Origin: Prorocentrum cordatum
Lineage: Eukaryota
Assembly: GCA_963575745.1 (NCBI GenBank)
Contig: CAUYUJ010000082.1
Span: 62,001 to 118,617, forward strand
Reading direction: 5' to 3'
Length of the DNA: 56,617 bases
Every line of letters starts with the position of its first letter. Within the stretch, counting starts at the first letter, position 1. The position numbers and the translations under genes were made by a program. Under the pieces are notes generated by a model. It worked only from the letters and a program-made list of their open reading frames with translations. It searched no databases and was not told the DNA's origin. Positions 7,317 through 56,617 of the stretch are shown piece after piece.

Positions 7317-7376
<60 letters not shown>

Positions 7377-7420
7377 TCCGTCGTCGTCGTCGTCGTTCCG
7401 TCGTCGTCGTCGTCGTCGTT

Positions 7421-7468
<48 letters not shown>
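7317..7468. repeat. (CGT)n microsatellite
   Basis: Directly visible; a similar tract lies at ~37770-37875. Confidence 0.95.
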
Positions 7469-7469
<1 letters not shown>

Positions 7470-8004: not shown

Positions 8005-8007
8005 TTA

Positions 8008-8053
<46 letters not shown>

Positions 8054-8578: not shown

Positions 8579-8636
<58 letters not shown>

Positions 8637-9404
8637 CGCTGATGCTGATGCTGATGATGCAGTTGCTGCTGGTGTGGTTGCTGCTGATGCTGATGCTGAC
8701 GATGCAGTGCCCGCTCGGCTCGAACCTGCCTGGCTGGATCCCCAAGCAAGCACCACTGCAGCAGGAGGAGGAGGAACAGGAAGCAGAGGAGGAGGAGGAG
8801 GAGGAGGAGGAGGAGGAGTAGGAGGTTTGAGCAGGAGGAGTTAGATGATGATGGTGATGATGACGACGATGATGATCATGATGATGATGCTGATGATGAT
8901 GTTGATCATGAATATGACTGCGATGAAGATGATGACTTTTATGCTGATGGTGATAAGGATGTTGATGATGTAGATGATGGTGATCATGCTGTTGTTGATG
9001 ATGACTATGTTGTTGATGTTGTTGAAGATGGTGATGGTGGTGGTGATTATGCAGCTGGGATTGTTGTTTTTGATGATGCGGTTGTTGATGTTGTTGATGA
9101 TGATGGTTATGACGATGATGGTGATGACGTTGATGACGATGATGACGATGATGACGATGACGACGATGATGACGATGATGGCGATGACGATGACGATGAC
9201 GATGACGACGACGATGTTGAGGATTATGATGATGATGGTGATGAAGCTGATAGCGATGATGATAGCGATGATGCTGATGATGATGCTGACGACGATGATG
9301 CTGCTGATCATGATGGTGATGCTGACTATGTTGGTGTCGATGATGTTGATGATGATGAAGAAGAATATGCGTATTATGATGACGGTGATGACGGTGATGA
9401 TGAC

Positions 9405-9451
<47 letters not shown>

Positions 9452-10052
9452 CGTTGGCACTGATGTTGATGATGCAGTTGCTGCTGATGTGTTCGCTGCT
9501 GATGCTGATGAGGATGCTTGGAAGGATAAGGATGAGGATGATGCTGAGGATGATGATGATGAGGATGATGATGACGACGATGATTATAATGATGTTGATG
9601 ATACGGATGCTGATGATGATTTTCCTGATTGTGATGGCGACGATGATGATGCTGTTGTGTGGGATGCAAATGGTGATAGTGACTGTGATGGTGTTGGTGG
9701 TGACGATCATGATGATGATTCTGAAGTTTATGATGATGCTGATTCTGACTCAGCTTAGGATGATTCTGATTATGATGCTGATGATGCTTATGATGATGAC
9801 GATGATGCTGACTATGTTGATGACGATGGTGATGATGATGATGATAACGATGCTGATGATGATGCTCATGATGCTGATTCTGATGATGATTCTGATGATT
9901 CTGATGATGATGATGATGATGATGATGATGAGTGTGCGGCTGCTGCTGCTGCTAATGACTATGATGCTGATGATGATGCTGATGGTGGTGGTGGTGGTTG
10001 TGATGATGATGACGATGCTGCTGCTGCTGATGATGATGATGATGCTGACGAC

Positions 10053-10085
<33 letters not shown>

Positions 10086-10164
10086 CATGATGGTCGTGGT
10101 GGTGGTAGTGGCGATGATGATGATGACGATGATGATGATGATGATGATAATCATGATCATGATC

Positions 10165-10218
<54 letters not shown>

Positions 10219-10483
10219 ATGCTTGTGATGGTGGTTGTGGTGGTGGATGATTTGGAGGAGGATGAGCAGGAGGAAGAGGAGGAGGATAAGGAGGATGCGG
10301 AGAAGGAGGAGGGTAAGCAGGAGGGGGAGAAGGAGGAGTATAATGTGGAGGTGAAGGGGGATGATGATGATGATAATGATGAAGACGATGATGCTGATGC
10401 TGATGCTGATGCTGATGCTGATGCTGATGCTGATGCTGATGCCGATGGTGATGGTGATGGTGATGGTGATGGTGATGGTGATC

Positions 10484-10558
<75 letters not shown>

Positions 10559-10580
10559 ATTATGATGATGATGATGAGGA
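8005..10580. repeat. Very long degenerate (GAT)n satellite containing an internal ~840-bp tandem duplication
   Basis: GAT/GAC/GCT triplets; shared interruptions atgcagctgggattgttgtt (~8207, ~9049), aatatgcg (~8548, ~9364) and gatgcagttgctgctg (~8656, ~9471). Confidence 0.95.
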
Positions 10581-12219
10581 GGAGAAGGATGAGGAGGAAG
10601 AGGAATAATATGACAAGCAATGCAGGAGGAGGGGGAGTCGTGATTGGAGGAGGAGGAAGAGCAGGAGAGGGGATCACGAGTCAGGAGGACACGTGTGTTC
10701 GGGGGGATGCGGAAGGAGAGAAACAGGAGGAAGAGGAGGGGAAGGTAGAGTGGGCGGAAGGGGAAGAGAGGAGAAGGTTGTGGAATTCCCATTGGTTTTC
10801 ATGCGAAGAGGGAGCGGGGGGGGAGCTGGGGGAGTGGGAGGGACCAGAGGAGGGGGAGTGGGAGAGGGGGACTGTGAGGAGGTGGAGGAGGAGGAGGAGG
10901 AGGAGGAGGAGGAGGAGGAGAAGGAGGAAGAGGAGCAGGAGGAGGAGGAGGGGGAGGAGGAGGAGGAGGAGGAGAGGAGGAGGAGGAGGAGGAGGGAGGA
11001 GGAGGAGGGGGACAATTGGGATGCTCGTCCTCCCTTCTCGGCTCCCTCGTCCAAGTCCCCCTCCTCCTGCACCTTCTGCTCCTCCTGGCTGCCCTCCCCC
11101 CGCAGCTCCCGTGCTCCTGTCCTGCTCATCGTGCCCCTACTTCTCCCCCTCCCCTCTGTGCGCGCCCCCGTCAGCATGGACTACACCACGCCAGGGAGGA
11201 GGAGGAGGAGGAGGAGGAGGAGGAGGAGGAGGAGGAGGAGGAGGAGGAGGAGGAGGAGGGGGAGGAGGGGAGGAGGGGGAGGGAGGAAGGAGGAGGGAGG
11301 AGGGAGAAGGGAGCCAGTGTGTATCGGCCAGGCGCGCGGAGGCTCACACCAGCCTGGCACCCGCGCGGAGGCCGCGGGCCGACCGGCGACGCAGCATGCT
11401 GCCACGAGCAAGCACATGCTCGGCACGCGTGCGACGTATACACGCTGTTCATTTCTAATTCTTCGAGGGCTCTTTGATCTTTTTTGGGGGGCCAAGATCT
11501 TTTCGTTTCTAATTCTTCCATCCTGGGCCTCTTCCTGGCCACTGGGGGGCCAGGAACAATCAGAAACGAGCGCAATCAGAAATGAGCACGATTAGAAATG
11601 AACGACGTGTATATGAAGAGCAAAAGCGCTGCGACGTTGCTGCGAGGTAGCAGCCCAGCTGCTTCCCTTCCGCTCTTTGCTGGTCTCACCCCGAGCAGAC
11701 CAATCCAGGGCCGCGCATCCGGTTGACTGGGTCGACCCCTGTCTATTCTCGCCCTCCCCACCCGTCTTGCCCTCACCCTTCCCTCCCTCTCTGTCATACT
11801 CTGCCCCCCCCCCCCGACTCCGCCCACTCCTCCCCTCCCATTCCCTCACCTAGTTTGCCAGTGTTTTCCTTCCAAGGGGCTTTGAGAGTAGAACGGATGG
11901 GGCCCCGCTTTCCCTTGAGGTCTCCCTAGGTCTCCGGAGGACCCTGGAGGTCACCAGGTGCCTCGTGGACCTCCGCAGGCTTCGGGCCCAAGCAGGGCCC
12001 CCAAACGGTCGAAAACCTCGATCCTCGATCCTTCCCTCCCTCCTCTCTCTCCTCCTCCTCCTCCTTCCTGCGGGAACGCCCGCGGACAGATCTTGGTGAG
12101 CATATCCGCCGACCGCGACCACACGTTGGCCCTGTGGGCGTCTGCTAGGGACGGCTGGTTCGGCTACCAGCGCAAGGAGCTGCCACCGCTCCACTTGAGG
12201 AAGGAGGGAGGTGGAGGAG

Positions 12220-13590: not shown

Positions 13591-13850
13591 ATGGATGATG
13601 ATGATGATGCTGCTGCTGCTGATGATGATGATGATGACGATGATGATGATGATGATGCTGATGCTGATGCTGATGCTGATGCTGATGATGCTGATGCTGA
13701 TGCTGATGCTGATGTTGATGTTGATGTTGATGTTGACGTTGATGCTGATGATGGTGGTGATGCGGATGATGATGACGATGCTGATGACGAATAATCATAT
13801 GACGATGCTGATGATGAGGAGGAGGAGGAAGGGGAAGAGGAGGAGGAGGA
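13590..13850. repeat. (GAT/GCT)n and (GGA)n microsatellite
   Basis: Directly visible. Confidence 0.9.
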
Positions 13851-14282: not shown

Positions 14283-14765
14283 GGGAACGACGACGATCGC
14301 GACGACGACGCCTCCCACAGGACGGCCCGAGGGCGCCCCTGGCGGTCTGCTCGGCGTACAAGAGCGGCGGGGTGGGCGGCGTGCTGGGCGCGCCGGGCGG
14401 CGCGGCGCGGTTCCCGGCCCGCGGTCCCCGGGGCCCTTCGACGGCCCGCGACGGCGGCAGTGGCCGCCGCAGAGGCCGTCGCCGCCCCGCGGCCGTCGCC
14501 GCCACCGCGGGCGCAGTCGCCGCCGCGGCCGCCGCTGCCGTCGCCGTTGCGCGGTCGCCGCCGCCGCCGCCTTCGAGGATTGAAGCTGGTGGGGAGAGGC
14601 GCCGCGAAACTCGAAGGAACAGGCATACATCCCCACCTGGGTGGCCAGGCGCCCTTCTCGATGCATGGCCGCCTGCGGCGCCAGAGGGGCCCCACGAGGG
14701 CTAAAACGTAGCACCAGGACCCTTAAGAAGTATATATTCCGCCCGAGTTTTGCAGCAGCCCTGAG

Positions 14766-15108
14766 AGTAAACATGCTCCTCTCCGCCTCATATTCAATGA
14801 GAGCTTAAGATAAGTTGCATGCTTCGCACGTTCTGCCTGAACTACTGCTGCATCCTGCAGCTGTATTGATTGCTCAAACAAGCCAGCCTTGGCTTGCAGG
14901 AGAGAAAAGGAGCGCGCCAGCCCTCGGCCGTCGCGCGTCGTCGGTCGTAGGCCAGCCGGCCTCCTCCCTATACATTCCTGATCGAGTAATCTTGCTTAAC
15001 GGATACTTGTCTTATCGATGTCTCATCCCGTCCCTTCTCTCCCTGAGCAGAGTGAACGTGAGATTTTAATTCCTTTGGCATCTTATCCCGATTCTCAGAG
15101 GAAAGACT
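14766..15108 (+). repeat. 5' LTR (AGT...ACT termini)
   Basis: Colinear with 37206-37548; 13 substitutions and no indels by manual count (~96% identity). Confidence 0.96.
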
Positions 15109-37196: not shown

Positions 37197-37205
37197 CGCG
37201 GGGGG
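37197..37205 (+). promoter_or_regulatory. Short polypurine tract (G6) before the 3' LTR
   Basis: cgcGGGGGG immediately precedes AGTAA. Confidence 0.6.
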
Positions 37206-37548
37206 AGTAAATATGCTCCTCTCCGCCTCATATTCAATTAGAGCTTAAGATAACTTGTGTGCTTCGCACTGTCTGCCTGAACTACTGCTGCATCCTGCAG
37301 CTGTATTGATTGCTCAAACAAGCCAGCCTTGGCTTGCGGGATAGAAAAGGAGCGCGCCAGCCCTCGGCCGTCGCGCGTCGTCGGTCGTAGGCCAGCCGGC
37401 CTCCTCCCTATACATTCCTGATGGAGTAATCTTGCTTAACGGATACTTGTCTTATCGATGTCTCATCCCGCCCCCTCTCTCCCTGAGCAGAGTGAACGTG
37501 AGATCTTAATTCCTTTGGCATCTTATCCCGATTCTCAGAGGAAAGACT
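37206..37548 (+). repeat. 3' LTR
   Basis: Direct repeat of 14766-15108, followed by TSD CTGAG. Confidence 0.96.
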
Positions 37549-42740: not shown

Positions 42741-43173
42741 ATGATGTAGATGCAGGTGATGACGATGACGCTGCTGCTGCTGATGATGATGCTGATGATG
42801 CTGATGAAGATGCTGATGATGCTGATGATGCTGATGATGACGATGCTAATGATTGTGATACTGCTGATGCTGCTGATGATGACGACGACGATGATGATGA
42901 TGATCATGACGATGATGATGATGCTGCTGATGATGATGATGATGATTGTGATTAGGATGAGGATGATGATGATGACGATGACGACGATGATGATAATGAT
43001 GATGCTGAGGCTGATGATGATGAAGCTGATGATGATGACGAGGTCTATGATGATGCTGATGATGATAATGCTGCTGCTGATGATGATGATGACTGGTGAT
43101 GGTGACGATTATGACGATGATGATGTTGCTGATGCTTGTGATGATGAGGATGATGATGAGGATGATGATAACT

Positions 43174-43217
<44 letters not shown>

Positions 43218-43229
43218 AATGATGATGAA

Positions 43230-43278
<49 letters not shown>

Positions 43279-43621
43279 CTGATGATGGTGCTGCTGATGC
43301 TGATGACGATGATGCTGATGCTGTTTATGATGATGATGATGATGGTGATGCTGCTGATGATGACGCTGATGATGTTGATGATGCTGATGATGACGACGAT
43401 GATGATTATGATGCTGTTGTTGTTGATGATGATGATGCTGATTATGCTGCTGCTGATGATGATGATTCTTATGATGATAATGATTATGATGATTTTGATG
43501 AGGATGAGAAGGAGGAGGAGGAGGATAATGACGATGCTGCTGCTGATGCTGCTGCTGCTGATGATGAGGATTATGATGCTGGTGATGGTGGTGATGGTGG
43601 TGATGATGATGCTGATGATGT

Positions 43622-43683
<62 letters not shown>

Positions 43684-43696: not shown

Positions 43697-44105
43697 ACGG
43701 CACGGCAGACCACAGCAGCCGGGCAGCTCAGCACGTCAGCCCGCAGGAACGTGGCACACCATAGGAGCACAGCAAACCACAGGAGCATGGCATACCACGC
43801 TGGCAGACCACAGCAGCATTGCAGACCTCAAGAGCACGGCGACGACTACAAGAACACGGCAGACCAGCACGGCAGACCACAGCAGCACGGCAGACAAGCA
43901 CGGCAGATGACAGCAACACGGCAGACAAGAACGGCAGACCGCAGAAGTATTGCAATTGCAACATAGCACGGGGGACCACAGCAGTATGGCAGATAAGCAT
44001 GGCAGACAACAGCAACATGGCTGACCAGCACGGCAGATCACAGCACAGGAATATGCCAGAGCAGCACGGCTGACCACAGCAGCGTGGCAGACCAACACGG
44101 CAGAG
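43697..44105 (+). repeat. Minisatellite of CACGGCAGAC/CACAGCAG units ending exactly at the spliced leader
   Basis: Repeated cacggcagac-cacagcag variants. Confidence 0.85.
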
Positions 44106-44127
44106 TCCGTAGCCATTTTGGGTCGAG
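44106..44127 (+). other. Relict dinoflagellate spliced leader (DinoSL)
   Basis: TCCGTAGCCATTTTGGGTCGAG matches DCCGTAGCCATTTTGGCTCAAG at 20 of 22 positions. Confidence 0.9.
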
Positions 44128-44144
44128 GCCGGCTCAGGGCTCCA

Positions 44145-44450
44145 TGGGCCCCGGACCATGGCGCGGGAGAAGCTGCCCGTGCGGCGGCCGACAATCTGGT
44201 GAGACGGCTGGAGCGCGAGCTGCGGGAGGCCCGGGCGGTTCTCGCCAGCCTTCGCTCGCAGCTGGTGTGCGGCTCGCAGGGCGACGCGGAGGCCGAGGCC
44301 CTTCGCCGAGAGGCCATCGCGCGGCCCGCCCTGGTGGAGCGCGCCCGCGGGCGGCGCGAGACCCAAGGGCAGCGGCTGCGGCGGCACGTCGCGTTGCATG
44401 CCGAGCCATCACCGAGTGCGTGGTCGAGATCTGCGTGGTTGAAATTCTAG
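44145..44450 (+). pseudogene. Short ORF1-like coiled-coil peptide of the LINE
   Basis: RRLERELREARAVLASL..EALRREAIARPAL..RRHVALHA between the SL and the endonuclease; nearby ATGs (44144, 44158) are out of frame. Confidence 0.5.
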
Positions 44451-44469
44451 ACGCTTCGCGTATCCCCAC

Positions 44470-44960
44470 CAGTTCTGGGACCCACTGGAGGGCTGGCCGG
44501 TGGGGTGGGGAGATCTCCTACCACACGGACCCCCCCTCCTGGACCAGCAAGACATGGTACCGGGTTGCGCAGTTGCGGCGATTGTGCAGCAGGGCGAAAG
44601 GAGAATCCGCCTTGTATCCATCTACCTCCCCTCCACCAGGAAGGAAGAAACCCTGGCAGAGATCGCATCGGCTGCGGAACAATGGGAGCCTCTCGACACC
44701 TACTGGGGAGGGGACGCAAACCTGCAGCTCCAACACCCGAGGGACGGGGAGGTGGAGGCCGCTGCCCTTCTGAGGGACATCCTCACCAGCTCCGGCTCCG
44801 TCGCCATCCACATGCATGGCCCAACCAGGATTGACAAGGAAAGTGAATCTCAAATCGACATCTGCGCCTGCCCAATCAATCACATCCACGCATACGACCC
44901 CCGAAAGCTCTGGCGGCTCACGCTTTCAGACCATGCCCTCATATCCCTCGACCCCCAGGG
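44470..44960 (+). pseudogene. Apurinic/apyrimidinic-like endonuclease domain (N-terminus apparently missing)
   Basis: GGLAGGV; LVSIYLP; WGGDAN; PTRI..SQIDI; LSDHALI. Confidence 0.88.
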
Positions 44961-45031
44961 CGCAAGGAGAGCCAGAAGGGACGACACCATGAGGGCTGCA
45001 GATTTGAGGAAACTCCCCAACCGCCGCGCAC

Positions 45032-47170
45032 GTGGAGCTGCGCAGGATCTACGCAGATCTGGAGATCCTCGTCGGCGTCCCAACCGTCAACCTTTGCGGC
45101 CCAATCCAGCCCTCGGACTGGATCAGGCCAGCTCGCCCTGGAGGCTTCCCTGACCACCACCCGGACAGCGACGACGGCGACGCCTTTCGCTTGCCCAGCG
45201 ACCCCGCCCCAACTCCAGGTGGTCTTGACAACCGCGCTCTCCTCCCCCCTGTCCTTCCCACCCTTCTGCTTTTCGGGAGGCACGCCCTCACCTTGGCCCT
45301 ACAGGACTGGTGGAAAAAGTGGAAGTCGCACAGAGCACGCGCCTCGGTGGGGACGCTACTGGCGGCAGCCAGCCAAAGACGGCAAGTCACGCGCCCGGTG
45401 GGGGCCCTGGCTGCTTGGCTATACGAGTTTGGATGGGACGGACACGACCTAACCCCAGAGCAGGCTGGGCGCTGGCTCAAAACTTGGGACGCGGAGGTCA
45501 CGCAGCGGAGGGCGATGCACCTATCCCCCGCCCAACGAGGCCCCGGGGCAGAGCGCTCCCACCTCGCAGCCCACTGCAGGACGGGGCGAGAGATATACAA
45601 AAAGACCCACGCCATTCTGGGGGTAAGGGACCATGATGGAAATTGGCACGACAGGCCCAACCAGGTGGGCAAGGTACTTTGGGACAGCCGCAGCTCGATT
45701 TGGCACACCGCTCCCCCTCTTCCTAACTCTGCCGGCCGGCTCCTCGACCAGTACTTCTTGGAGCACCCCGGCACCGACATACCCAGTCGTCCTGCTCCAT
45801 GTTGGGCCAAGCTAGCTACCACCGTCCTCACCCCCAGCGGGGGCGCCCCAGGGGTCGACGGGGTCCCTTACGAGGCCTTTCACCCAGGCGCAAGGTTCGT
45901 CACCTGCCTCCTCGCCCAGGCCTGGTACGCAGCGGACCTCAACCCGAGCCTCATAGACGAAGTACTGGGGCCCTCAGTCGATCTCCTGGTATGGATTTGG
46001 AAGAAGCCAGGCGCTGAGGGGCCCAACGACATGAGGCCGCTCCAACTCCCCACCTGCATACGGCGTCTCTACGGAGCATCCTTGGCCGACCTTATGGGCC
46101 CCATCGTCGAACCGCTCTTAAGTCCCAATCAGGCAGCCAAGAGAGGAGGACAGTGTGGACCCAATATCACCAGGGTCACTCAGCACCTAAGTGCTACCCC
46201 CAGTCCACCAACCGCCCCGGGCCCTAGCTGGGCCGCGCTTCTAGGTCAGCATCATGCGGTGGTGGAAGAGTACGTCGAGCGCATCGCCGCAACTCTGGGC
46301 GACGCCCCATGCACTGCCGTCATCTTCTGTGATCAGAACAAAGCGTTCGAAAGGATCTCGCTCCAATGGGTCGATGCCCTGCTACAAAGATGGGGACTCC
46401 CCTCATGGCTTCTCAACGCCTTAAAAGCCTTGGTTATTGAACGAAAGGTTAAGACGTGCAAGGGCAAGTACAAAGGGCCAGAACGCCTCCTCCTCAGATC
46501 CGTCGGCATGGGCGGCACCGCCTCCCCCCTCCTGTGGAATCTGGGCTACGACCCCCTCATAAGCGCCATTGCATCCATCACAGGAGAGGTCGACCCCACT
46601 TACGTAGACGACCTCGCTGCGCTTGTTAGCACAACAAGACAGGCTCTTCGCGCAGCAATCGCACTCCCCTGGGCAGCCAAGGCCGCCAGGCTCCTGGTCG
46701 AGGCGCGCAGATGTCGGGGGGCGCGCACCTACGACCCCCCTGATATCCGCATGGCGTTGGAGGAGGTCCCCGTGCACTTTGAGCAGGGCGGAGACTGCGT
46801 GCTCATCTCAGGTTTGAGCAGGGCGGAGACTGCGTGCTCATCTCAGGTCTCCCTGCACTCCTGACCCAGGCTCTTATCAACAGACACATGGGGGAAGGTG
46901 GCCCGATACGGTGCACGCACTACCAGCGCACCTGTAACTGCGCGTTCAAGACAGCGCTCGTACCCGCGGGAAACCAAGGGTGGTGGCGCTCACTCATGGG
47001 GCACACCCCCTTTGGAGGATCGGCGGTCAGGGAGCAATGGCCCTATTTGGGGGCAATAGTAGTATCCCGAGCAGCAGACGGGGACGAACCCCCTGAGAAG
47101 GAGGACTCACAGGGGAGCAGGAAGAGCTACTGCGCAAGGGCACGTGGAACCGCCCCCTCCCCAGGATGAG
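45032..47170 (+). pseudogene. Non-LTR reverse transcriptase, frameshifted by a 35-bp duplication
   Basis: APGVDGVPY; WKK..MRPLQL; DQNKAFERI; GMGGTASPLLW; YVDDL; PYLG. Confidence 0.92.
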
Positions 47171-47524
47171 AGAGATCCCTAGCGCTGCACTTGGCCAAGA
47201 TGTCTCCCTCCAGAACGGCCGCCGCATGGAACGCGCACCTGGTCTCGCTGATCCCCTACGCTGCCCACTGCGCCCCCCCGGACGCGACCCAGGAGCGTGA
47301 GCTGTGCGCCCAGTTGAGGACTGCCCTCGGGCTGGCTGGGGCATCCTGGGCCCCCGACATAATCCTTACCGGCCTTGGCATGCGCTTCCAGGTCCAGGGC
47401 GCCCCCAGGTGCCCTGTAGCCACTGCCCGCGCCGTTGCTGCAAGAGCGTTTGTGCTCGGGGACTTCCGGGGTCCCTGCGCGCTCAGGAAGCGCGCCAGCA
47501 CCAGATGGAAACTGCTGACCTGGA

Positions 47525-48556
47525 GTGGCCAGGCAGCCCATGCCCCAGAGGCACCCCCCCCCACGACCGAAAATTATCACAGAAAGAAAGGCCGCCCAGG
47601 CCCTGCTCACCTTGAGGCAGCGACCTCACCTTGTGGGGGCCAAGCAATGCGGCAGAATCACGTACGTGGCGGCTTGGGCGCAGATGAACAGTCATCACTT
47701 CACCGCCTGGCTCCAAAGAACCAGCCAAAGGAGGAGATGGCGACCGTCGTTGGGTGAGGAGTGGCAGCTGCTTCGGCACTGCGTCACATTCACCTGTGCG
47801 TACCACGTACTGAGGGTGCTCAGCAACGGCCTGCCAGGCCCGGCAAGGCGCAGGGGAAATGGCGAAAGAGTTCCCCGCAGATGCCCCTGCGGGGCGCCGG
47901 CCAGCAGAGTTTGGATCACCGCCGGCCCGAATGACGAGGGGGCGGCCTGGTGTTGCACATGCATCGGCAACGGTCCCCACGCCCTTGCCCTCTGGCAAAC
48001 GCTCCCCCCTGATTCTCTCCCTCCCCCCCTGAGACTTCAAGCCTGCGCCTATGCTGGCTCGGGGGGGCCCATGGGGCCGCCCATCAGGGAAGGGCCGTGC
48101 GGACGTTGCCCTCTCTGCGGACTGGGAGAAGCCACGACCAAGCACGTCTGGCACTGGTGCCCTGCTGCCGCTCTCGTCTGGGACACCATCCGCGGGCCCG
48201 ACGACCCGCCCCCCCTCGCCCAAGCAATCGCAAGCGAGGGCGAGCACCAGCCGCTGCTGGCCAGAATATTACACCAGATATCCTACCGCTACTGCGTCAA
48301 CCTCACTGCCACCCCTCTGGAAGCAAGCGACGCGGCCACTCTCATCCCGCGAGGGCTGGCCACCCCAGGCATCGACCCCCACGAGAGCGATGGGGACGAG
48401 CAGACTGACAGCGACCCTTCCAGGGGCGGCAGACACGATGAAGCGGCCGTGTGGACCGTGCGGCGCGACCATTGCCACACTTGTAACCCGGAAGCCCTCG
48501 CCAGCCTGGGCAATTCGCGGGGCTGCCAGGCCCCGCGCACAAAGGCGCGCAGATAG
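47525..48556 (+). pseudogene. LINE C-terminal region with CCHC zinc knuckle
   Basis: CPLCGLGEATTKHVWHWCP at 48107-48163. Confidence 0.8.
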
Positions 48557-48853
48557 GGCTGGAGGCGAAGCTCGGAGGCTCCCGGTGGCCAGCAGGCACT
48601 GCAACCCGGACGATAGGCTAGTGGTGGTTCAGGCCACGCACAGCCGCGCCGCGTGGATGCCTCCCGGCAGAGGTTGGTTCCTTTGCCCAAGGACTGACAA
48701 CTCTCCAACCGCGTGCTGGACGACAACCTTCTGTCGTGAATGTTGCTTGCGTACCCCACTCTCAGGGCCAACATCAGACTCGAGCCAGGCGACGAGATAA
48801 CCGTCCGCGACTCCCCTTTTCCCGACTCCGACTCCACCCATTGGCCCTGCTAG

Positions 48854-49260
48854 ATCACCTTTGACGGGGGGGCAAGATCCATCGGGGAGGGCGATGAAGT
48901 TTCTGGGGCTGGGGCCATACTCTGGCACCGCAACCCCAACACCGGGGCTCCCCGCGTGCTCGCCATTGCCATAATCGCTCTCCCAGATTGCAGCAACGCC
49001 CAAATGGCGGAGGTTGCAGGCTGTCGTGCAGGGCTGGCACTGCTCCCCCACATCAACAGCCCCACCCGCACTGCGCGGATTGTCGGCGACAACTTAGCCG
49101 CAGTAAGGTACGGAGCTGGCACAACCAGATACCGAAGGCTACATCTGGCTCAGCAGATGGAGGAAGCCTTGGGGCTGGTCGAGGGAGCAGGTTGGGTTCT
49201 CACTTGGCAGGCCGCCAGGCGCAGACTTAACAAAGCGGCGGACAGTCTGGCCACCATAGG
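48854..49260 (+). pseudogene. RNase H (archaeal/plant-type) of the LINE
   Basis: ITFDGGAR..GAGA; AQMAEVAG; IVGDN; RRLNKAADSLA. Confidence 0.88.
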
Positions 49261-51210
49261 GGTGTATTGGGCAGACGCCCTCCACAGGGCAGGAGTTACA
49301 GCAGTCACTTCCCGCGCTCAGTGGAGTGGGGCCGTCCACCCTATTCCCGCCCACTTCCCGTGCGCCCCCCCTCGCTCTGCCTGTCTGTGCGACCTCATTG
49401 TGGCGGCTGAGGTTGCCCGCTCTCTCGCGCACCCCTCCCCTGCCCCGCTCCCTGACCCCCCTCATTCTGTGCCCCGTCCGCCCGACCGCCGCAGCATCTG
49501 GGCCCGCGCCGTGTCGGCTCAAGCAACTCCTCCCATGTGCGTTCTTTCAGTTCTCGCAGCTATCGGCTGGACTCCCCCACACTGCACCGCCGCGCGATGG
49601 TAAAGAAGAACAGCGGTGGGCCCCTTGTCAGATGGCCGTCTCCGTTCGAGCCCTGCAAGAGTGGCCCCAGTACGGAAGATGCATCCAAGCCCTTTCGTGC
49701 CCGTGAGCGCCCCTGGATGCGCTGGGCGCACTTCCACACGGAGTGGTGTTGGTGGTGCGAGGTCTGCCAGGAACACTGCGGCGGCAAGGCGCATCTTGAG
49801 TAGCGAGCATTACCAGGAGGCCGCCAAGCAGAAGGAGCACGGGTGGCCCGACCCCAGGTGCTACACGGAGGCGGGCAACCTATGGGCCAGGACCCGAGGA
49901 GGGACCAGAGACTGCATCACCAATAACATAATCGAGAGGTACGAGTGGCCTGGGTGGGTACTCCCCTGTCCGGACGTGGAAGACGGCCATCGGCACCTAC
50001 CAGGCTGGACGTTCCCAGAGGACTGGGACCACGTACCAGTCGACTTTCCTTATCGGGACGACGATTTAAGCTTTATAACCACCGCCGACGCGATCCCGTC
50101 TGCCAGCCTGCGGCCAGCAGACTTGCACCGACGTGGCGGGAGGGCGAACCCATGGCTCGGCGGAAGGACGGCGGGGGGCAGCGTCATGCCTCCCCCTCGC
50201 AACATCGCAGAGGGACCGCCTCCCCCCAGCTTGTGTGACAGGTTGGTTGGATCCAGCAGGGCGTCGTCGCAAGACCCCGCCGAGCGGGGCGGGTCACGAA
50301 AGGGGGAGGGACCCAGTGGGTCCAGCAGTCGCCACCCACTCCCCTCGCTGACACCCCCAGACCCCCCAGCTGACACCGCGGCCAAGGCCATCGTACAGTT
50401 GTTCTGCGTGCCAGCGGAGCGCCCTGGAGCCCAGTTCCGTCTGCATGTCCCACTGGGGAAAAATCTTAGAGGGAGTTAACCTGCCGGTGTACTGGGAGCA
50501 GGACCCACGACAGAGGGGGATCGTTCTGACCAGACTGGCATGGACGGAGACCATGGCCCCCACAGAGACAACATGGGACGGATCAGTAAAGGCCAGAACA
50601 GATTTGGTGCGCAAGCGGAGCTGCGCCGTGGAAGTGGCGGTAACCCCCGCGCACGAGCAGTCCGACTGTCACGTGCTTGACAGGTTCAAGCTTCGCCAGG
50701 CGTTCCCCCCCCAGGAGGGGAAGACACTCCTACACCTGCAATGGCCGAGCGAATTCCGGCTATCGCTCCAGGGAATGGACGGCGTACAGGACTCGCAATC
50801 CCGGATGCTGCTCTTCAGCCTCACCAGTCCCACAGAGGACCAGGTCGCCTCCCTCAGGCTGGTGTGGCCCCCGGAGTTTGGTGGCCACATCACCAGCAGC
50901 GAGTGCGTCGCAATGGATCTCGGGGAAGGCACAAGGTACCCCACCAACCAGGCATTGGCATGGTGCGACTCCAAGGAGGCAGAGGAATTATTGGCTCTCG
51001 GCAAGGAAACAAGTTCTGGCAGCAAGAAACAAGTCCTGTTCCGACTGGACAGAGCGCCATCGAGGCTGCAGTATTGGAGGATCTATCAGGCCATCTCCGA
51101 CATCCACAAGCTGCAACAGTCGCCGGAGGAATTCGCGGGCTCTCCACTGGACGTGATAACGTTCTACCTCGATATAAGGACTCCCCAACGAGACGACAGG
51201 CTAAGGGCCA

Positions 51211-53505
51211 ATGAAGTGGAGAAAACGAGGGCGGGCGGGGCTTCTCTCCTGGCAAGGGCAAGGGCCACCATGGAGAGCCGAGGACAGCCTACTGGGAGTA
51301 TCCGCGGTAGGGGGGACCACGCAGCAACAGCGCAGCCAAGCGCAAGCGGTCGCGCCGTTCACGGACGATGAATTTGATGGATCAATCGGGCAGGTCCTCC
51401 AGCGAGTGCGGAACCTCCCCTCCGTCCACAGCCCCAACGAGGCCGCCGCACGACACCGTCTAAACAGCAGCGCGGCCAAGGCATTGACCTCCACCATCCT
51501 ACACCACGTGACGATTGTACATGGACCCCCTGGGGCTGGCAAGACTCTGTTCACAGTGGCCACCATGGACGCATGGGCCAGTTCACTTCCCGCGAGGCAG
51601 TCGGTAGCCCTCGCAGCTGGATCGAACACAGCAGCCGACCAGCCCGCTATTGGGCCCGGAGTGGCGCAGAAGGAGAACAGGCTTGCGGGTGAGACCGGGT
51701 TTCCCAACAGGTGCGTCAGGCTCGCGAAGGACGCCAGAGTGGCGCAGGGAATTGCGTCCTTGACCCCTGTGGGACACTTTCAGAGGACCCACAATCGCCC
51801 GCCCAAGCAGAATGGACCCTCCAAGGAGCTCCAGTCTTTCCGCTCCCAACTATTAAGCGACGCCAAGCTGGTTATCGCTACCCACGAGGCGGCCGAGTCG
51901 CTCAAACTAGTATCAACGGCGCTACTCATCATCGACGAGGCGGAACAGGCCCACGAACTCATGGCGGCAATGTCCCTCGTCAATGTCATAGGGTCAGGTG
52001 GGCGCCTAGTGCTGGTTGGTGACCCCAGGCAGCTACCCCCCACGGTTCTCTCCGGGAAGGCGGCTGTCAGGGGGCCTTGTCTCTCCATATTCGACAAGCT
52101 GCACAACGCACTGGGCGGGGGCAGCCCAGCGGTGGTGCAGCTAAACCTGTGCTACCGTATGCATCCTCTCATTCTCTCCTGGCCAAGCGCGGCCTTCTAC
52201 AACAAGGCTATTCGGTCTGGGCTCGCCGACCCCCTGGCGCAGAGGCCAATCGTGGAAGGAATACCGTGGCAGCAGGTGCAGCCCTGGGACGAAAGGAGAC
52301 TCCGGGCGCTAGCAGCATCGGCCAACGCTACCACGGATGACATGGAGACGTTACCGCGGGACCTTCAACCCCCACCGCAGCACTCTGAAGAAAGGCACCG
52401 ATTTCTCCTGGTCGACAACCCCTCAGTTGAGGTCACCTCCAATCTTCATTCCGGCTACGCGAACATCCCAGAGGCCGCGCAGACGGTGGACGTGGTGAGG
52501 GCCCTCATGCCTGCCATGGAAGAAGGGACCACTGTCCTGGTCGTGGTAGGGTACCAGCTTCAGTGCGCGGTGCTCGAGGAGGGCTGGCCCCAGTCGGGTC
52601 GCAACATCATCGGCTCCCTCGGGCAGGCTAGGAACAGGGGCAAAGGTGACGGCAAAGGCGAATTCAAAGGGCCATGCGACCCCCGGGACCAGCGAGGGCA
52701 CGAACAGGTCTTTGAGCAATGGAGCTCCCAGTCCAATGGAATCGGGCTTCAATTCCCAGGGATATGCCAAGTAGCTGGGAGATACCTGGCCAGTGGCAAG
52801 CTCAACATCTCCACCATCGTCTCCAGCCAGGGCGGTGAGGCCGACATCGTGGTCTACCTGACTACGCGATCCAACTGCAACCACGACTGGGGTTTCATGG
52901 GCAATCCCAATAGAGTCAACGTCATTATCACGCGTGCCAGGTCACACGTGATCATCATCGGGGATGGAAGAATGTTCACCACGGCCACGGGGTCGCACCT
53001 CAGGGAGCTCTCTGAATATGGGCGGATGGCCGGGCTTTGGATACGCTTCCATGGGGACAACCTGGGCAACCGTGCCTCCCTACGCTGCGACGAGGGATTC
53101 GACCCCATCAAGGACCTGGAGTCTTGGATCCCAGCTGCTCCCACACACGACGGAGACGCCAGCGTAAAGGGCTTGGGCGACGCCATCAGGAAGGCCGAGG
53201 CCAAATTGGAAAGCTCATTCGCAGACCGTATTGCAGCACCACTGGGGCAGAAGTTCTCGTGGGAACAGCTAGGGGCCGCCCTCTCGGACAGCATCCAGAC
53301 GCTAGTCGACGACCCACTCATGGGCATTCTGATGTACACCATCTCTGGACTGCACCCCCACCAGTGGCAGGTGGGGGCCACGCCCAGGCAGCCTGGCAGC
53401 TTTGACAGGCAGGCATGGAGCCATTTGGGCTACTGCTTTGACCCGGAGGTCGGGATCGACGCGAGCAACCGGGTGTACAACCTCACGTGGGCGGCCATCG
53501 TCTAA
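51211..53505 (+). CDS. Upf1/Dna2/Sen1-like superfamily 1B helicase (core ~51460-53030); N-terminal part probably in ORF 50445-51371 via a frameshift
   Basis: Motif I HGPPGAGKT (51520-51546), Ia AGSNTAAD, II IIDEAEQ, III LVGDPRQLPP, YRMHP, V STIVSSQGGEAD, VI NRVNVIITRAR. Confidence 0.92.
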   Translation: MKWRKRGRAGLLSWQGQGPPWRAEDSLLGVSAVGGTTQQQRSQAQAVAPFTDDEFDGSIGQVLQRVRNLPSVHSPNEAAARHRLNSSAAKALTSTILHHVTIVHGPPGAGKTLFTVATMDAWASSLPARQSVALAAGSNTAADQPAIGPGVAQKENRLAGETGFPNRCVRLAKDARVAQGIASLTPVGHFQRTHNRPPKQNGPSKELQSFRSQLLSDAKLVIATHEAAESLKLVSTALLIIDEAEQAHELMAAMSLVNVIGSGGRLVLVGDPRQLPPTVLSGKAAVRGPCLSIFDKLHNALGGGSPAVVQLNLCYRMHPLILSWPSAAFYNKAIRSGLADPLAQRPIVEGIPWQQVQPWDERRLRALAASANATTDDMETLPRDLQPPPQHSEERHRFLLVDNPSVEVTSNLHSGYANIPEAAQTVDVVRALMPAMEEGTTVLVVVGYQLQCAVLEEGWPQSGRNIIGSLGQARNRGKGDGKGEFKGPCDPRDQRGHEQVFEQWSSQSNGIGLQFPGICQVAGRYLASGKLNISTIVSSQGGEADIVVYLTTRSNCNHDWGFMGNPNRVNVIITRARSHVIIIGDGRMFTTATGSHLRELSEYGRMAGLWIRFHGDNLGNRASLRCDEGFDPIKDLESWIPAAPTHDGDASVKGLGDAIRKAEAKLESSFADRIAAPLGQKFSWEQLGAALSDSIQTLVDDPLMGILMYTISGLHPHQWQVGATPRQPGSFDRQAWSHLGYCFDPEVGIDASNRVYNLTWAAIV

Positions 53506-53930
53506 TTCTTCGGGCTTGGCACGCCATGGTGCGACAAAAAGCTCGGGGTCGCGTGCGAGTCGCTCCCCCCCTACCTCGCATGGTGGGCTCCAACAGGGTC
53601 CCCAAGAAGAAAAGTCACTGCGCTCCCCGGAGCACGCTCCATCAGTTTCCAGCGGCATGGAGCTCTACCACCTGCAATTGCCGTCGGCACAGGTTACACC
53701 CAGGTATGGAGAACCTGGGCGCCGTGTTCCAGCACGAGGGGATCGATGCAATGCTCGCAGACATGCTGGTCAGTGCGAGCGGACAGCCGCTCTCCCCACA
53801 CGCACTCAGAGTACTACTGGTGGTCATGATGTTGCAGCTATGTGAGCCCCGGGCCACGCTATGGCCCTTCCCGAACCCCGAGGTCACTGGCGACATCTTC
53901 GAGGCCATGATGGGCCTGTGCCTCCCGTGG
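53440..53930 (+). pseudogene. RNase III-like motifs, possibly two degenerate domains
   Basis: SNRVY...DKKLGVACESL (helicase frame, past the TAA at 53503) and ENLGAVF..G...VTGDIFEAMMG (53883-53915) resemble the RNase III N..La / K.laD.fEAl.G helices; no ERLEFLGD signature found. Confidence 0.4.
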
Positions 53931-54072
53931 CAGGAAGCGCACAGAGATTTCCGCGCGCAGTTCGCCACGACGTGGGGTTACCAGCTGGCGGACCTCGATA
54001 ATCTCCGCGCCAAGCTCGCCAAGGTCATCCGTCACTCAGGTGCCCTAGCAACCTTCGCCCACCACCGCAATA

Positions 54073-55238
54073 TTGCCGACAAGCACGGCTGTCCAAAGAC
54101 TTGGGCCGAGATGGAGGCGCACGACTTCACGTCGGAAGCTCCCCGTGCGCGTATTAGAGGACATTGTGCAGCCAGCCGGCGCGTGCCATCTACACCACGG
54201 AGAGTGTTCCATCTGCCTTCTCCACGCCGCGCCGGCAGGGGCGGAGATCGGGCTGGGGTGCCCACGTAATATGGGGGACCTACAGTACATTGGCGGGGGG
54301 ATTGCCATCTCTAACCACCGTCTCGACGAAGACATCCCCGCCTCACCCGCCCCAGGTACTGCGCTGATTCCCCCCGTTGTGCACGACGGGCGCTTCAGCA
54401 GGCTTCAGGAGGAAGCCGCGTACTGCTGCGACGGATGCCACAATGGAGGGCTACAAGGCTCCGCAGGCACTTGGGTGGATGACTACACCCGGGAGCTACT
54501 CGCTCAGAACCGCCTGCAGGCGCACGCGAAGGGGAGAAATTGCAGATGGCTCTGCCAACGCTGTTGGGTCGCCTCATTGGAAGAGAAGGGCATTTCTCTC
54601 CCCGGGCCGGACCCCGACGAGCGCTTCAGCAAGGAGTCCATGCAATGGCTACTGCAGGAATACAAGCGCAGGCTACTGGACAGCCGGGGGCAGAAGAGGG
54701 CCAAAACCTTCCCACCCATGGACGGGCTTCATTGGGGTTGCAGGAGCCTAAGGGCGCTGGAGCCGAGGTCTCCCTCAAGGAGCTACTATTACGTACGACG
54801 CGCCACTATCGCCCTTCCTGTGCAGGCACCACCCTGCCACCACAAAGGCTCTCCGACGGCAGGTTCGGAGTGGAGGCGCACCGTAGCGGATGCTATTCAG
54901 CAAAGTGCGACTTTTGCCCCGCGCACACCCCAGTGCTTGAATGGTCGGCAGGCACACCCGCCCTGGGGTGCTTCATCTGGCACCCTGAACAAGGCGCTGA
55001 GTGCTGCGACCGCACAGGCCTCCCAGTATGGGAAGCAATGCTTACGCTGTGGACCAAGGGGCAATGGAGCGCCAGCTGGGCCTGCAGGAGGTGTTTGGTG
55101 CACATTTGGGACGTCGCACCCAGCGCTCTCAACAATGTGCTGAACGCATACTCCAACATGATCTACCCCCCCAGTCCTGTCCCAATGGTGGCGAGCGAAG
55201 GTGCAGAAGAGGGTCGGGGGCGGAAAAGAGGGGGGTGA
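54073..55238 (+). pseudogene. Cys-rich coding region of unknown function, frameshifted
   Basis: CHLHHGECSIC, YCCDGC, WLCQRCW, CDFC and WACRRC in overlapping + strand ORFs. Confidence 0.45.
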
Positions 55239-55427
55239 TGACTAGGGGGGGGTGGATATCATGGCGTGGGCCATGATATTTCCCCAGATTTCATGGCGAC
55301 TCTTCTCATTTCATTACGTCCCTGGCCCCCCCGCTGGGCCGCGCACATGCCGCCGGTCATGATTTGCACCCCCCCCTCTTGGACACCCCCCTCCTGGCCG
55401 CTCCCGAGAGGGGGGCATCTATGATAT

Positions 55428-56617
55428 GTGTGCGCACCTGTCTCCGGTCACCACTTCCCCAAAGGACGGCTCCTCCGCGAGCTCCCCCCTGTGCTCGAGG
55501 CGCGGGCGGTGAGAATCACCAAGGACAATGCTGCACTCGGGTGCGCTCTGCCGCCGCTCCCTCCGCCCGACGCCCCCCCGCTGCCCGCGCGCGCGACCCT
55601 CTGCCTGGGAGGGGGGCAGGCGTGCAGGCCAGTACGCAAGCTGGTGAATTGTCTGCTGGAATGGAACCATGAGATTTATACCCGTTGGTCGACATTTGGT
55701 GGAGAAAGGGTCGGAGACCAAGTGTGTGAGGACAGCGAGATATCCGACTGGTCTCACAGCCAATTGCTGCGTTTTCTCCACTCCATCTACAGTGACCAGA
55801 TCCCCATGAATGGGCACCCCTCTCACATTCCTCGGGGCGGCCATAGAGCTGCAGCAGCCAATGCCATTGCGCTGTTGGTTGGGAGTAATGGAAAGTTCCA
55901 GGAGGATCGGATCACCTTCTCGGCCGCGCTCGACTGCCAAAGAGGGCAAGACCCGTGGCTGCAGCCGATGGAAGCGCTGCGCCGCTTCTTATCCCTCAGG
56001 AAGGACGATCTCGCAGGAGGAACGCTGAAATCCTCGCTGGCGAGCACAGCGCCCCGAACAGCAACGAAGCTAGGGATGACTCCCCCGCCGCCGCCTGGCG
56101 CAAGCGCCCTCCAGCCTCGGACGGCCACGCCAACTGTGATGACCTCAGTCAGCAGCCCCCAGGGGCCACAGAAGCGACGAAGGAGATAAAGGAGGAACCG
56201 TCCTCGGATAGGGGCTCTCACGGTAACGGCGACAATCCGTTCGAGGTAGACTGGGATGAGGATAATCCAGAGAGAACAGTCTCCATGATCTATAGCCCCC
56301 CGCAGCAGGACGAAGAAGCCGAAATCAGCGGCCTCAGTGGCAGAGAAGTCCCCTTCATGCGGACAGTGCTGTGGTCAGTCCCCCCCGACGAAGAGGAAGC
56401 TGCCAATTGGGCGCCCTGCGCCGCGGCCCGCTTCAAAGAGGACATAGAACAAATCCGTGACAAAAGGGCTGACCAAAGGAAACTTCGAGGGAAAGGGGGC
56501 GCCAGACCGCAATCAGGAGTCTATCCAGGAGCGAGCAGCCCCGGCGCACGAGACTCGACGGGCGCTCAGCCCCCGGCAGGACAGCAGCCCAGAGAGACGG
56601 CCGCGCCCGCAGGCTGA
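55428..56617 (+). pseudogene. Further + strand coding-like region of unknown function
   Basis: ORFs 55428-56189 and 55955-56617 with ordinary amino-acid complexity; no recognisable motif. Confidence 0.35.

What the first reader, a model, noticed from the sequence alone, without database searches (positions are those of the whole stretch)
49537..53505. Upf1-like SF1B helicase apparently carried by a LINE
Seen: directly after RNase H, the same strand continues through a zinc finger (WCEVC..CGGKAHL..EH, ~49750-49810) and ~1.5 kb of coding sequence into a helicase with motifs I-VI. I see no introns, tail or microsatellite break. Known: some insect LINEs carry viral-type SF1 helicases; Upf1/MOV10-family helicases are host factors that bind and restrict LINE RNPs. 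Inference: a captured Upf1-family helicase used for RNP remodelling or to counter NMD/silencing, making the element larger than 12.5 kb.
Basis: partly seen in the sequence, partly recalled or inferred. Interest (0 to 1): 0.82.

Follow-up and report, generated by a model that had tools for sequence, protein, structure and literature searches.

The report
Dinoflagellate LINE with giant helicase ORF
A decayed copy of a jumping gene (LINE) from a dinoflagellate-type genome carries, right behind its reverse-transcriptase gene, a second huge gene with an Upf1-like RNA helicase, an arrangement the literature searches run here did not find described for LINEs.

Summary
On the + strand, 44.4-49.6 kb encodes APE endonuclease, RT and RNase H. 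From 49,597 a second reading frame runs through a conserved C2H2-like zinc finger into an Upf1-like SF1B helicase with motifs I-VI, and on past the window end.

It is not one open frame. The window copy is 5'-truncated and carries at least 13 frame breaks. Intact relatives show two cistrons: ORF1 (1870 aa) and ORF2 (2541 and 2945 aa, uninterrupted).

Evidence that ORF2 belongs to the LINE:
- The ORF2 ATG overlaps the ORF1 stop (ATGGTAA).
- No tail, repeat or clear spliced-leader relic separates them.
- Both halves are multicopy at similar depth in one sequencing run, and some of that run's contigs carry indels at ORF2's first three breaks that would keep the frame.
- One Prorocentrum cordatum gene model joins an ORF1 segment to the ORF2 N-terminus.

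A 20/22 DinoSL relic at 44,106 marks the 5' end of the retroposed RNA.

"Captured host Upf1" is not shown: the helicase forms its own long-branch clade. Its function is inferred only. Direct ORF1-ORF2 junctions in other full copies, the 3' end and the TSD could not be seen.

Verdict: real, a new variant of a LINE with an accessory helicase. Interest is moderate to high.

The parts
44106..44127 (+). Relic dinoflagellate spliced leader (DinoSL), 20 of 22 bases. It marks the 5' end of the retroposed RNA and sits directly after the tandem array 43700-44104.
   Evidence: 1 match with 3 or fewer mismatches, 0.01 expected. Sequence read. Consensus confirmed in PMC5585692 (abstract and passages).
44128..44440 (+). 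Low-copy leader of 313 nt between the SL relic and the start of element homology. It is not shared with other copies.
   Evidence: depth 14.8 in bin 43938-44375, against 55-230 along most of the element. 8 contigs diverge upstream of 44441.
44446..45057 (+). APE-type endonuclease, C-terminal part only. It corresponds to residues 151-349 of the intact 1870-aa ORF1 relative P0198, so the copy is 5'-truncated.
45017..46816 (+). Reverse transcriptase region of ORF1 (frame 2). It is 47% identical to P0123 over 605 aa and carries the YVDD motif.
46778..46848 (+). Perfect 35-bp tandem duplication that shifts the ORF1 frame in this copy.
   Evidence: The frame change is seen.
46840..48853 (+). Post-RT region of ORF1 with Cys/His motifs, colinear with P0198 residues 1018-1700 and with metagenome contig L001.
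48854..49603 (+). RNase H (RVT_3) and the ORF1 tail, ending at stop TAA 49601-49603.
49503..49523 (+). Weak DinoSL-like stretch 74 nt upstream of the ORF2 ATG (15 of 21 bases; last 12 bases 10 of 12). A lead only.
   Evidence: About 2 such 12-mers per strand are expected by chance in the window, and about 0.03 in the 900 nt searched.
49597..49599 (+). ORF2 start codon, overlapping the ORF1 stop (ATGGTAA). It aligns within 1 codon of the start of P0128 and within 11 codons of the start of P0201.
49744..49810 (+). C2H2-like zinc finger of ORF2, split in this copy by a frameshift near 49796.
   Evidence: pLDDT 70-82 for the equivalent residues of P0203.
50457..51278 (+). Pre-helicase domain of ORF2. 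It is possibly the stalk and 1B beta-barrel typical of Upf1-like helicases.
   Evidence: Z 5.6-6.2 to that region of Sen1, SETX, ZNFX1, IGHMBP2 and DNA2, tied with unrelated barrels.
51478..52965 (+). Upf1-like SF1B helicase core (AAA_11 and AAA_12). Motifs I-VI lie at 51523-52944.
53517..56617 (+). Rest of ORF2, running off the window end: a conserved helical region, two Cys-rich modules and a Pro-rich region. It is colinear with P0128 residues 1319-2150, and no family is recognised.

Best explanation
Window 44,106 to beyond 56,617 (+ strand) is one retroposed, 5'-truncated and now frameshifted copy of a multicopy APE-type LINE family found in dinoflagellates and marine metagenomes.

Intact members are bicistronic:
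- ORF1 (about 1870 aa) holds APE endonuclease, RT, a Cys/His region and RNase H.
- ORF2 (2541-2945 aa) starts at an ATG that overlaps the ORF1 stop. It holds an N-terminal C2H2-like zinc finger, an Upf1-like SF1B helicase, and about 1400 further residues with Cys-rich modules.

Shown: the domain content, the colinearity, the multicopy state, the conserved ORF2 start, and conservation of all helicase motifs at about 30% identity.

Inferred: both ORFs are made from one SL-capped element RNA, with ORF2 expressed by reinitiation at the overlapping stop/start. The ORF2 protein then acts in the element's RNP as a 5'-3' RNA or RNA/DNA translocase. In that role it would unwind the long GC-rich template or strip RNA and protein during target-primed reverse transcription.

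The confidence given (0.75) is for the structural claim that the helicase ORF is an integral cistron of this LINE family. The mechanical role of the helicase stands at about 0.4.
For: - Colinearity. ORF1 relative P0198 aligns to 44446-49252 and ORF2 relative P0128 to 49603-56177. Both are on the same strand with no gap.
- Stop/start overlap ATGGTAA. The ORF2 N-terminus is conserved in P0128 and P0201.
- P0128 and P0201 are uninterrupted ORFs of 2541 and 2945 aa. That fits an intronless mobile gene in an intron-rich host.
- No break between the ORFs: no tandem repeat, no A run, and no DinoSL with 5 or fewer mismatches.
- Run X1 laid 3981 contigs, 80-100% alike, along the whole stretch. Depth was similar over RT (55-161) and helicase (59-227). 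Some X1 contigs differ from the window by indels at 49796 (+2; 1 contig, depth 12.9 of 52.6), 50459 (-1; 2 contigs, 16.5 of 31) and 51285 (+2; 2 contigs, 15.6 of 21.7), each of which would keep the ORF2 frame across one of its first three breaks. The later three ORF2 breaks have no such indel among the 12 of 60 rows shown.
- P0205, a P. cordatum gene model, has an ORF1 post-RT segment at residues 325-395 (52% identical to the window, E 6e-19) followed at residue 404 by the ORF2 N-terminus.
- A piece of ORF2 (P0182) and a piece of ORF1 (P0190) both come from contigs of 2489 bp.
- Frame breaks are about equally dense in the two halves: about 7 in 5.2 kb against at least 6 in 6.6 kb.
- GC3 is 0.70-0.72 in ORF1 and 0.68-0.75 in ORF2.
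- The DinoSL relic at 44106 shows RNA-mediated origin.
- Motifs I-VI are intact in all 3 full family helicases.
Against: - No second full copy with both ORFs could be read. The 25 metagenome loci found with the RT are too short (the best is 4937 bp) and none holds ORF2.
- The four long contigs with P0128-type ORF2 (15.6-27 kb) share no contig length with the listed ORF1 clusters except the 2489-bp pair. That RT search saw only proteins of 339-1082 aa.
- X1 depth falls to 15.3 in the junction bin 49194-49631, and no listed contig bridges 49,600 (only 16 of 4036 pieces were shown).
- P0205 is a gene model and may skip sequence between its two parts.
- A weak SL-like stretch sits 74 nt upstream of the ORF2 ATG, which would also fit a separately retroposed gene.
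- Some frame breaks might be assembly errors: at four listed indels every covering X1 contig differs from the window.
- The function is not tested at all.
Confidence: 0.75

Rival explanations
1. The helicase ORF is a separate multicopy unit that merely lies downstream of a LINE here. It could be a retroposed, SL-capped helicase gene family or another mobile element. Alternatively it was joined to the LINE once, by RT template switching, in a lineage of dead chimeric copies.
For: - A weak DinoSL-like stretch lies 74 nt before the ORF2 ATG.
- Depth dips at the junction bin.
- Retroposed multicopy genes are common in dinoflagellates (PMC5585692, passages read).
Against: - The SL-like stretch matches only 15 of 21 bases and is within chance for the whole window.
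- No LINE 3' tail or TSD lies before it.
- The ORF1-then-ORF2 order recurs in P0205 from a named dinoflagellate, with its ORF2 part 36% identical to the relative P0128.
- The start/stop overlap and the equal decay of both halves fit a single unit.
Confidence: 0.14
2. ORF2 is part of the LINE, but its role is counter-defence, not mechanics of reverse transcription. As an Upf1 paralogue it would blunt nonsense-mediated decay of a bicistronic RNA whose first stop is followed by more than 7 kb. Alternatively it would interfere with RNA silencing.
For: - UPF1 is the closest solved helicase by profile (4e-42).
- The element RNA has a very long region downstream of the ORF1 stop.
- Insect LINE helicases were reported to suppress silencing weakly (PMC6338049, passage read).
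Against: - No UPF1 CH domain or UPF2-binding region was recognised.
- All ATPase motifs are kept, which a simple decoy would not need.
- The family is not nested in any host clade sampled.
- Nothing was tested.
Confidence: 0.2
3. It is an ordinary single-copy host helicase gene next to a dead LINE.
For: Upf1-like helicases are common host genes.
Against: - The stretch is multicopy at 80-100% likeness in X1 across the whole ORF2.
- There are at least 6 frame breaks.
- Relatives have intronless ORFs of 2541-2945 aa.
- Only 14 relatives reach E<=1e-30 among 1.84 billion representatives.
Confidence: 0.02

Closest known systems
Insect R1/TRAS and Jockey LINEs with an added viral SF1 helicase domain (Lazareva 2015 PMC4686597; Morozov 2017 PMC5563155; Morozov 2019 PMC6338049)
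   Same: An APE-type LINE that carries an accessory superfamily-1 helicase with all motifs kept. Its role is unknown, and RNP help or silencing suppression has been discussed.
   Different: - In insects the helicase is a tobamovirus-like (Viral_helicase1) domain fused to the C-terminus of the RT polyprotein.
- Here it is an Upf1-like AAA_11/AAA_12 helicase (E 1e-22 to 1e-27, against 1.8e-4 for Viral_helicase1).
- It sits inside a separate 2,500-2,900-aa ORF with its own start.
- The host is a dinoflagellate-type genome.
Upf1-like SF1B helicases (UPF1/Nam7, SETX/Sen1, IGHMBP2, DNA2, ZNFX1, Aquarius)
   Same: - The Pfam pair AAA_11 and AAA_12 and motifs I-VI are present.
- Profile match to UPF1 is 4e-42, Sen1 2.7e-36 and IGHMBP2 1.4e-30.
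- There is a possible 1B barrel.
   Different: - No CH, R3H or other signature accessory domain of those proteins was recognised.
- It forms its own long-branch clade.
- It is multicopy and linked to an RT.
Dualen/RandI LINEs of green algae (APE, RT, RNase H, RLE, cysteine protease; PMC9977147 passages read)
   Same: A large protist/algal LINE with APE, RT and RNase H followed by further unusual coding sequence.
   Different: No RLE or protease was recognised here. The extra part is a helicase ORF. RT relatedness to Dualen was not tested.
Bicistronic LINEs with overlapping stop/start and translational coupling (for example SART1 UAAUG; recalled, not read here)
   Same: Two ORFs on one RNA with a stop/start overlap.
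   Different: In those elements the upstream ORF is the small RNA-binding one and the RT ORF is downstream. Here the RT ORF is upstream and the giant helicase ORF is downstream.

Membership tests
APE-type non-LTR retrotransposon (LINE) | APE endonuclease upstream of an RT with the YxDD motif in one ORF | tested here: met
   Window Pfam gives RVT_1 6e-11 and Exo_endo_phos_2 0.0014. The YVDD motif is seen. Intact relative P0198 has Exo_endo_phos 2.6e-11, RVT_1 6.1e-07 and RVT_3 4.4e-08 and is colinear with the window.
APE-type non-LTR retrotransposon (LINE) | Multicopy, with 5'-truncated copies | tested here: met
   3981 X1 contigs, 80-100% alike, cover the stretch. The window copy starts at residue 151 of the 1870-aa ORF1.
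APE-type non-LTR retrotransposon (LINE) | 3' tail (poly-A or simple repeat) and target-site duplication around the whole unit | not testable with these tools
   ORF2 homology still runs at 56177, with about 390 residues of P0128 unmatched. The 3' end therefore lies beyond the window.
APE-type non-LTR retrotransposon (LINE) | Helicase ORF linked to the RT in independent copies | tested here: inconclusive
   Support comes from one gene model (P0205) and one contig-length coincidence. No contig read here spans both ORFs.
Upf1-like SF1B helicase | Motifs I, Ia, II, III, IV, V and VI, and the Pfam pair AAA_11 plus AAA_12 | tested here: met
   The motifs are conserved in the window copy, P0128 and P0201.
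Upf1-like SF1B helicase | Stalk helices and 1B beta-barrel before RecA1 | tested here: inconclusive
   The model of P0203 has pLDDT 65-88 over residues 250-490. It matches that region of Sen1, SETX, ZNFX1, IGHMBP2 and DNA2 at Z 5.6-6.2, with UPF1 at 4.6. FAD-binding barrels score the same, and all values are below the tool's Z 8 guide. Foldseek found nothing at E<=0.001.
UPF1 proper (orthologue) | N-terminal CH zinc-knuckle domain that binds UPF2 | tested here: not met
   No such Pfam family appears in P0128 at E<=1. The N-terminus instead has a single C2H2-like finger.
Upf1-like SF1B helicase | ATP-driven 5'-3' unwinding | not testable with these tools
   This needs biochemistry.
Insect LINE plus viral SF1H class | Helicase of the alpha-like virus type, fused in the RT polyprotein | tested here: not met
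   Viral_helicase1 scores only 1.8e-4, against 4.2e-27 for AAA_12. The helicase sits in a separate ORF with its own ATG.
Dualen/RandI LINE | Restriction-like endonuclease and cysteine protease after RNase H | tested here: inconclusive
   There is no Pfam hit in ORF2 outside the helicase, but about 1400 residues remain unassigned. One fold attempt gave pLDDT 44.

The most novel reading that the evidence does not exclude
The helicase ORF was acquired when the LINE's RT, while copying an SL-capped cellular mRNA, switched template onto LINE RNA. The SL-like stretch 74 nt before the ORF2 ATG would be the scar of that event.

The resulting LINE of 13 kb or more, armed with its own Upf1-like helicase, would be a main source of the still unidentified machinery behind the massive mRNA retroposition of dinoflagellates. 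The helicase would make long, GC-rich, SL-capped RNAs copyable, or shield them from decay.
Probability: 0.12. Interest if true: 0.85.

Novelty: new variant of a known kind. Interest (0 to 1): 0.62.

Why it matters
LINEs normally carry a small RNA-binding ORF and an EN-RT ORF. Added helicases are in print only for insect elements, as small viral-type domains.

A LINE of 13 kb or more, whose larger cistron is a 2,500-2,900-aa protein built around an Upf1-like helicase, would widen the known gene content of non-LTR elements. It would also provide a natural case of an RT working with its own SF1B helicase.

Dinoflagellate genomes are shaped by retroposition of SL-capped mRNAs, and the enzyme source is stated to be unknown (PMC5585692, passage read). 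This family has a copy that itself starts with a DinoSL relic. That makes it a concrete candidate to test.

Tried and rejected
- No whole genome is held for the window.
- The RT-based scan of JGI metagenome contigs gave 25 loci. Four were close (L001-L004), but all were too short to reach ORF2. tblastn of P0128 found nothing in any of the 25.
- The scan of prokaryote genome contigs with P0128 gave 26 pattern matches and no relative.
- The scan of viral contigs gave 4 generic helicases and no family member. A first try with 7 sequences had no usable conserved stretch.
- No RNA holder was listed for the stretch, so expression is unknown. X2 laid nothing. X3 laid 11 short pieces, all under 90% alike.
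- A possible RNase III-like motif (G-D-[IV]-F-E-A, invariant in 5 rows; the resemblance is recalled) found no support. There is no Pfam hit and no PDB profile hit outside helicases. The AF2 model has pLDDT 44, and the Atlas had no usable hit.
- ORF1 (P0198) has no PDB sequence match at E<=0.01, so the LINE clade was not assigned.
- The tree is the quick one; the careful search did not finish. It lacks UPF1, MOV10 and ZNFX1 rows because no tool supplied those sequences.
- The DinoSL search of L001 and L002 gave 0 matches.
- Earlier findings of this scan held nothing.
- Literature searches for an Upf1-like helicase in a LINE or in dinoflagellate elements found none. Repbase and subscription journals could not be searched.
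Full report
**What is there**

The window is GC-rich (0.60-0.66 over 44-56 kb). On the + strand, Pfam finds four things in order (19 ORFs scanned, 4 with hits):
- a partial APE endonuclease (44443-45153; Exo_endo_phos_2, E 0.0014, below the cut-off);
- a reverse transcriptase (45008-46864; RVT_1, 6e-11);
- an RNase H-like domain (48854-49603; RVT_3, 7.4e-5);
- an Upf1-like SF1B helicase in a 766-aa open frame (51205-53505; AAA_12 4.2e-27, AAA_11 1.1e-22).

Helicase motifs I, Ia, II, III, IV, V and VI lie at 51523-52944. The best solved relatives by sequence are UPF1 (8e-22), IGHMBP2 (8.7e-21) and Sen1 (1.1e-19).

It is conserved as W-x-C-x2-C-x8-9-H-x5-H in 5 of 6 aligned family members.

**It is two ORFs, and this copy is broken**

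The domains sit in different frames. Relatives explain why.

The RT ORF has only 5 relatives of 339-1082 aa in the 5.8-billion-protein collection. One of them, P0123, reads straight through two of the window's frame changes. A cluster mate, P0198, is a complete 1870-aa ORF1 with Exo_endo_phos, RVT_1 and RVT_3. It aligns colinearly to 44446-49252, starting at its residue 151. The window copy therefore lacks the first 150 or so residues.

The helicase ORF has no close relative of similar length (best 31% identity over 37% of the query). Among longer proteins there is P0128, a 2541-aa uninterrupted ORF (E 1e-198, 46% identity, 94% coverage). Its residues 4-1863 align colinearly to 49603-55178 with six frame changes in the window, and residues 1811-2150 align on to 56177. 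The gene therefore runs off the window.

A search of 1.84 billion representatives found 14 proteins at E<=1e-30. One is P0201, a 2945-aa uninterrupted ORF aligned from its residue 2 at about 30% identity.

One ORF1 frame break is a perfect 35-bp tandem duplication at 46778-46848.

**Where ORF2 starts**

ORF1 stops at TAA 49601-49603. The ATG at 49597-49599, in the -1 frame, opens the frame that carries the zinc finger, so the two overlap as ATGGTAA. This Met aligns within one codon of the P0128 start and within 11 codons of the P0201 start. The helicase protein is thus a separate cistron with a conserved start. It is not a continuation of the RNase H polyprotein.

**Is the helicase part of the LINE?**

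Evidence for:
- The two ORFs abut without any tandem repeat, any A run of 6 or more, or any DinoSL with 5 or fewer mismatches.
- Contigs of run X1, laid at 80% likeness or better, cover the whole stretch. There were 3981 contigs: 447 at 99% or more, 1030 at 95-99%, 1337 at 90-95% and 1167 below 90%. Summed depth was similar over RT (55-161) and helicase (59-227).
- Some of those contigs carry indels at 49796 (+2; 1 contig, depth 12.9 of 52.6), 50459 (-1; 2 contigs, 16.5 of 31) and 51285 (+2; 2 contigs, 15.6 of 21.7). Each would carry the ORF2 frame across one of the window's first three ORF2 breaks. No such indel is among the 12 of 60 rows shown for the breaks near 53.5, 54.1 and 54.8 kb.
- P0205 is named by its source as an unnamed protein of Prorocentrum cordatum. 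It holds an ORF1 post-RT segment (residues 325-395; 52% identical to the window, E 6e-19) followed at residue 404 by the ORF2 N-terminus and further ORF2 pieces.
- A C-terminal ORF2 piece and an internal ORF1 piece each come from a contig of exactly 2489 bp.
- Frame breaks are about equally dense in the two halves, and GC3 is alike.

Evidence against or missing:
- I could read no second full copy. The 25 metagenome loci found with the RT are at most 5.7 kb, and none holds ORF2.
- The long contigs with P0128-type ORF2 share no length with the listed ORF1 clusters apart from the 2489-bp pair.
- X1 depth drops to 15.3 in the junction bin, and no listed piece bridges 49,600 (16 of 4036 pieces were shown).
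- P0205 is a gene model that may skip sequence.

I put the probability that ORF2 is an integral cistron of this LINE family at about 0.75-0.8.

**A spliced-leader relic**

At 44106-44127, directly after the tandem array 43700-44104, the + strand reads a 20/22 match to the dinoflagellate spliced leader. This was the only match with 3 or fewer mismatches, against 0.01 expected.

After the relic come 313 nt that are low-copy in X1 (depth 14.8). Element homology then begins at 44441-44446, where 8 X1 contigs diverge upstream. This copy therefore derives from an SL-capped RNA. That RNA could have been a transcript trans-spliced or fused upstream of a truncated element, or a template-switch product.

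This fits a dinoflagellate-type host, as does the naming of five relatives as P. cordatum (5 of 10 looked up). That genome is reported at 59.7% G+C (PMC10666404, passage read).

A much weaker SL-like stretch lies 74 nt before the ORF2 ATG (15 of 21 bases; last 12 bases 10 of 12; 49503-49523). About two such 12-mers per strand are expected by chance in the window, and about 0.03 in the 900 nt I searched. I treat it as a lead only.

**What ORF2 is made of**

- A profile of the family matches UPF1 best (4e-42), then Nam7, SETX, Sen1 (2.7e-36), IGHMBP2 (1.4e-30), DNA2, Aquarius and ZNFX1. Nothing outside the helicase matches.
- In a quick tree of 40 rows, the window, P0128 and P0201 form a clade (SH-aLRT 99) on a long branch. 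It lies outside the SETX/Sen1, HELZ2 and IGHMBP2 groups. No UPF1, MOV10 or ZNFX1 rows were available, and the careful search was unfinished.
- The nearest non-family helicases are a mix of bacterial IGHMBP2-family proteins and protist transcripts. No donor is identified.
- An AF2 model of the N-terminal part (P0203, 13-row alignment, mean pLDDT 53) is confident for the finger (70-82) and for a domain at residues 250-490 (65-88).
- That domain matches the stalk/1B-barrel region of Sen1, SETX, ZNFX1, IGHMBP2 and DNA2 at Z 5.6-6.2. Unrelated FAD-binding barrels score the same, so the result is inconclusive.
- The roughly 1400 residues after the helicase have no Pfam family. One fold attempt failed (pLDDT 44).

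**How it most likely works**

Shown: the architecture, and conservation of all ATPase/helicase motifs at about 30% identity.

Inferred:
- One SL-capped element RNA carries both ORFs.
- ORF2 is translated by reinitiation at the overlapping stop/start, or from a trans-spliced sub-mRNA.
- The ORF2 protein joins the RNP and acts as a 5'-3' translocase on the long GC-rich template or on RNA/DNA hybrids during target-primed reverse transcription.

I give this mechanical role about 0.4. I give a counter-defence role (anti-NMD or anti-silencing) about 0.2. The rest is open.

**Comparison and novelty**

Helicase-bearing LINEs are in print for insects, but there the helicase is a viral-type SF1 domain fused to the RT polyprotein (PMC4686597 and PMC5563155, listings and abstracts; PMC6338049, passages).

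My six searches found no description of a LINE with a separate giant ORF holding an Upf1-like helicase, in dinoflagellates or elsewhere. I also read passages in a dinoflagellate genomics review (PMC11453091) and in the P. cordatum genome paper (PMC10666404). Repbase and non-open journals were not searchable.

I file it as a new variant of a known kind.

Noticed in passing
window 14765-15108 and 37205-37548: A 344-bp direct repeat, 96% identical, brackets a 22.8-kb stretch full of long + strand ORFs (up to 1016 aa). None of the 18 ORFs of 200 aa or more has a Pfam hit at E<=0.001, and the 1016-aa ORF has no PDB sequence match. It looks like a large element with terminal direct repeats but no recognisable RT or integrase.
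   Followed up: partly
window 42757-43683, 8000-10600, 13594-13850: Long G-rich TGA-type microsatellite blocks with strong GC skew are shared between three places in the window.
   Followed up: no
window 43700-44104: A tandem array of a 31-bp unit (12 copies, 66% matches) ends two bases before the DinoSL relic. It may be the target site of the retroposition.
   Followed up: no
window 44441-44472 and 55214-55407: Two short pieces have very high contig depth in run X1 (bins at 1922 and at 6300-7700). Many contigs diverge on both sides of each piece. They are small high-copy repeats or low-complexity sequence inside the element copy.
   Followed up: no
window 53800-53900 (ORF2, P0128 residues about 1420-1450): An invariant G-D-x-x-E-A-x-x-G motif lies in an all-helical region and recalls (from memory) the RNase III signature. 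No tool supported this.
   Followed up: partly
window 44128-44440: The 313-nt low-copy leader between the SL relic and the LINE has an open frame with a coiled-coil-like Arg/Glu/Leu-rich sequence. Its origin is unknown: a host 5' exon, a template-switch partner, or an element 5' region.
   Followed up: no
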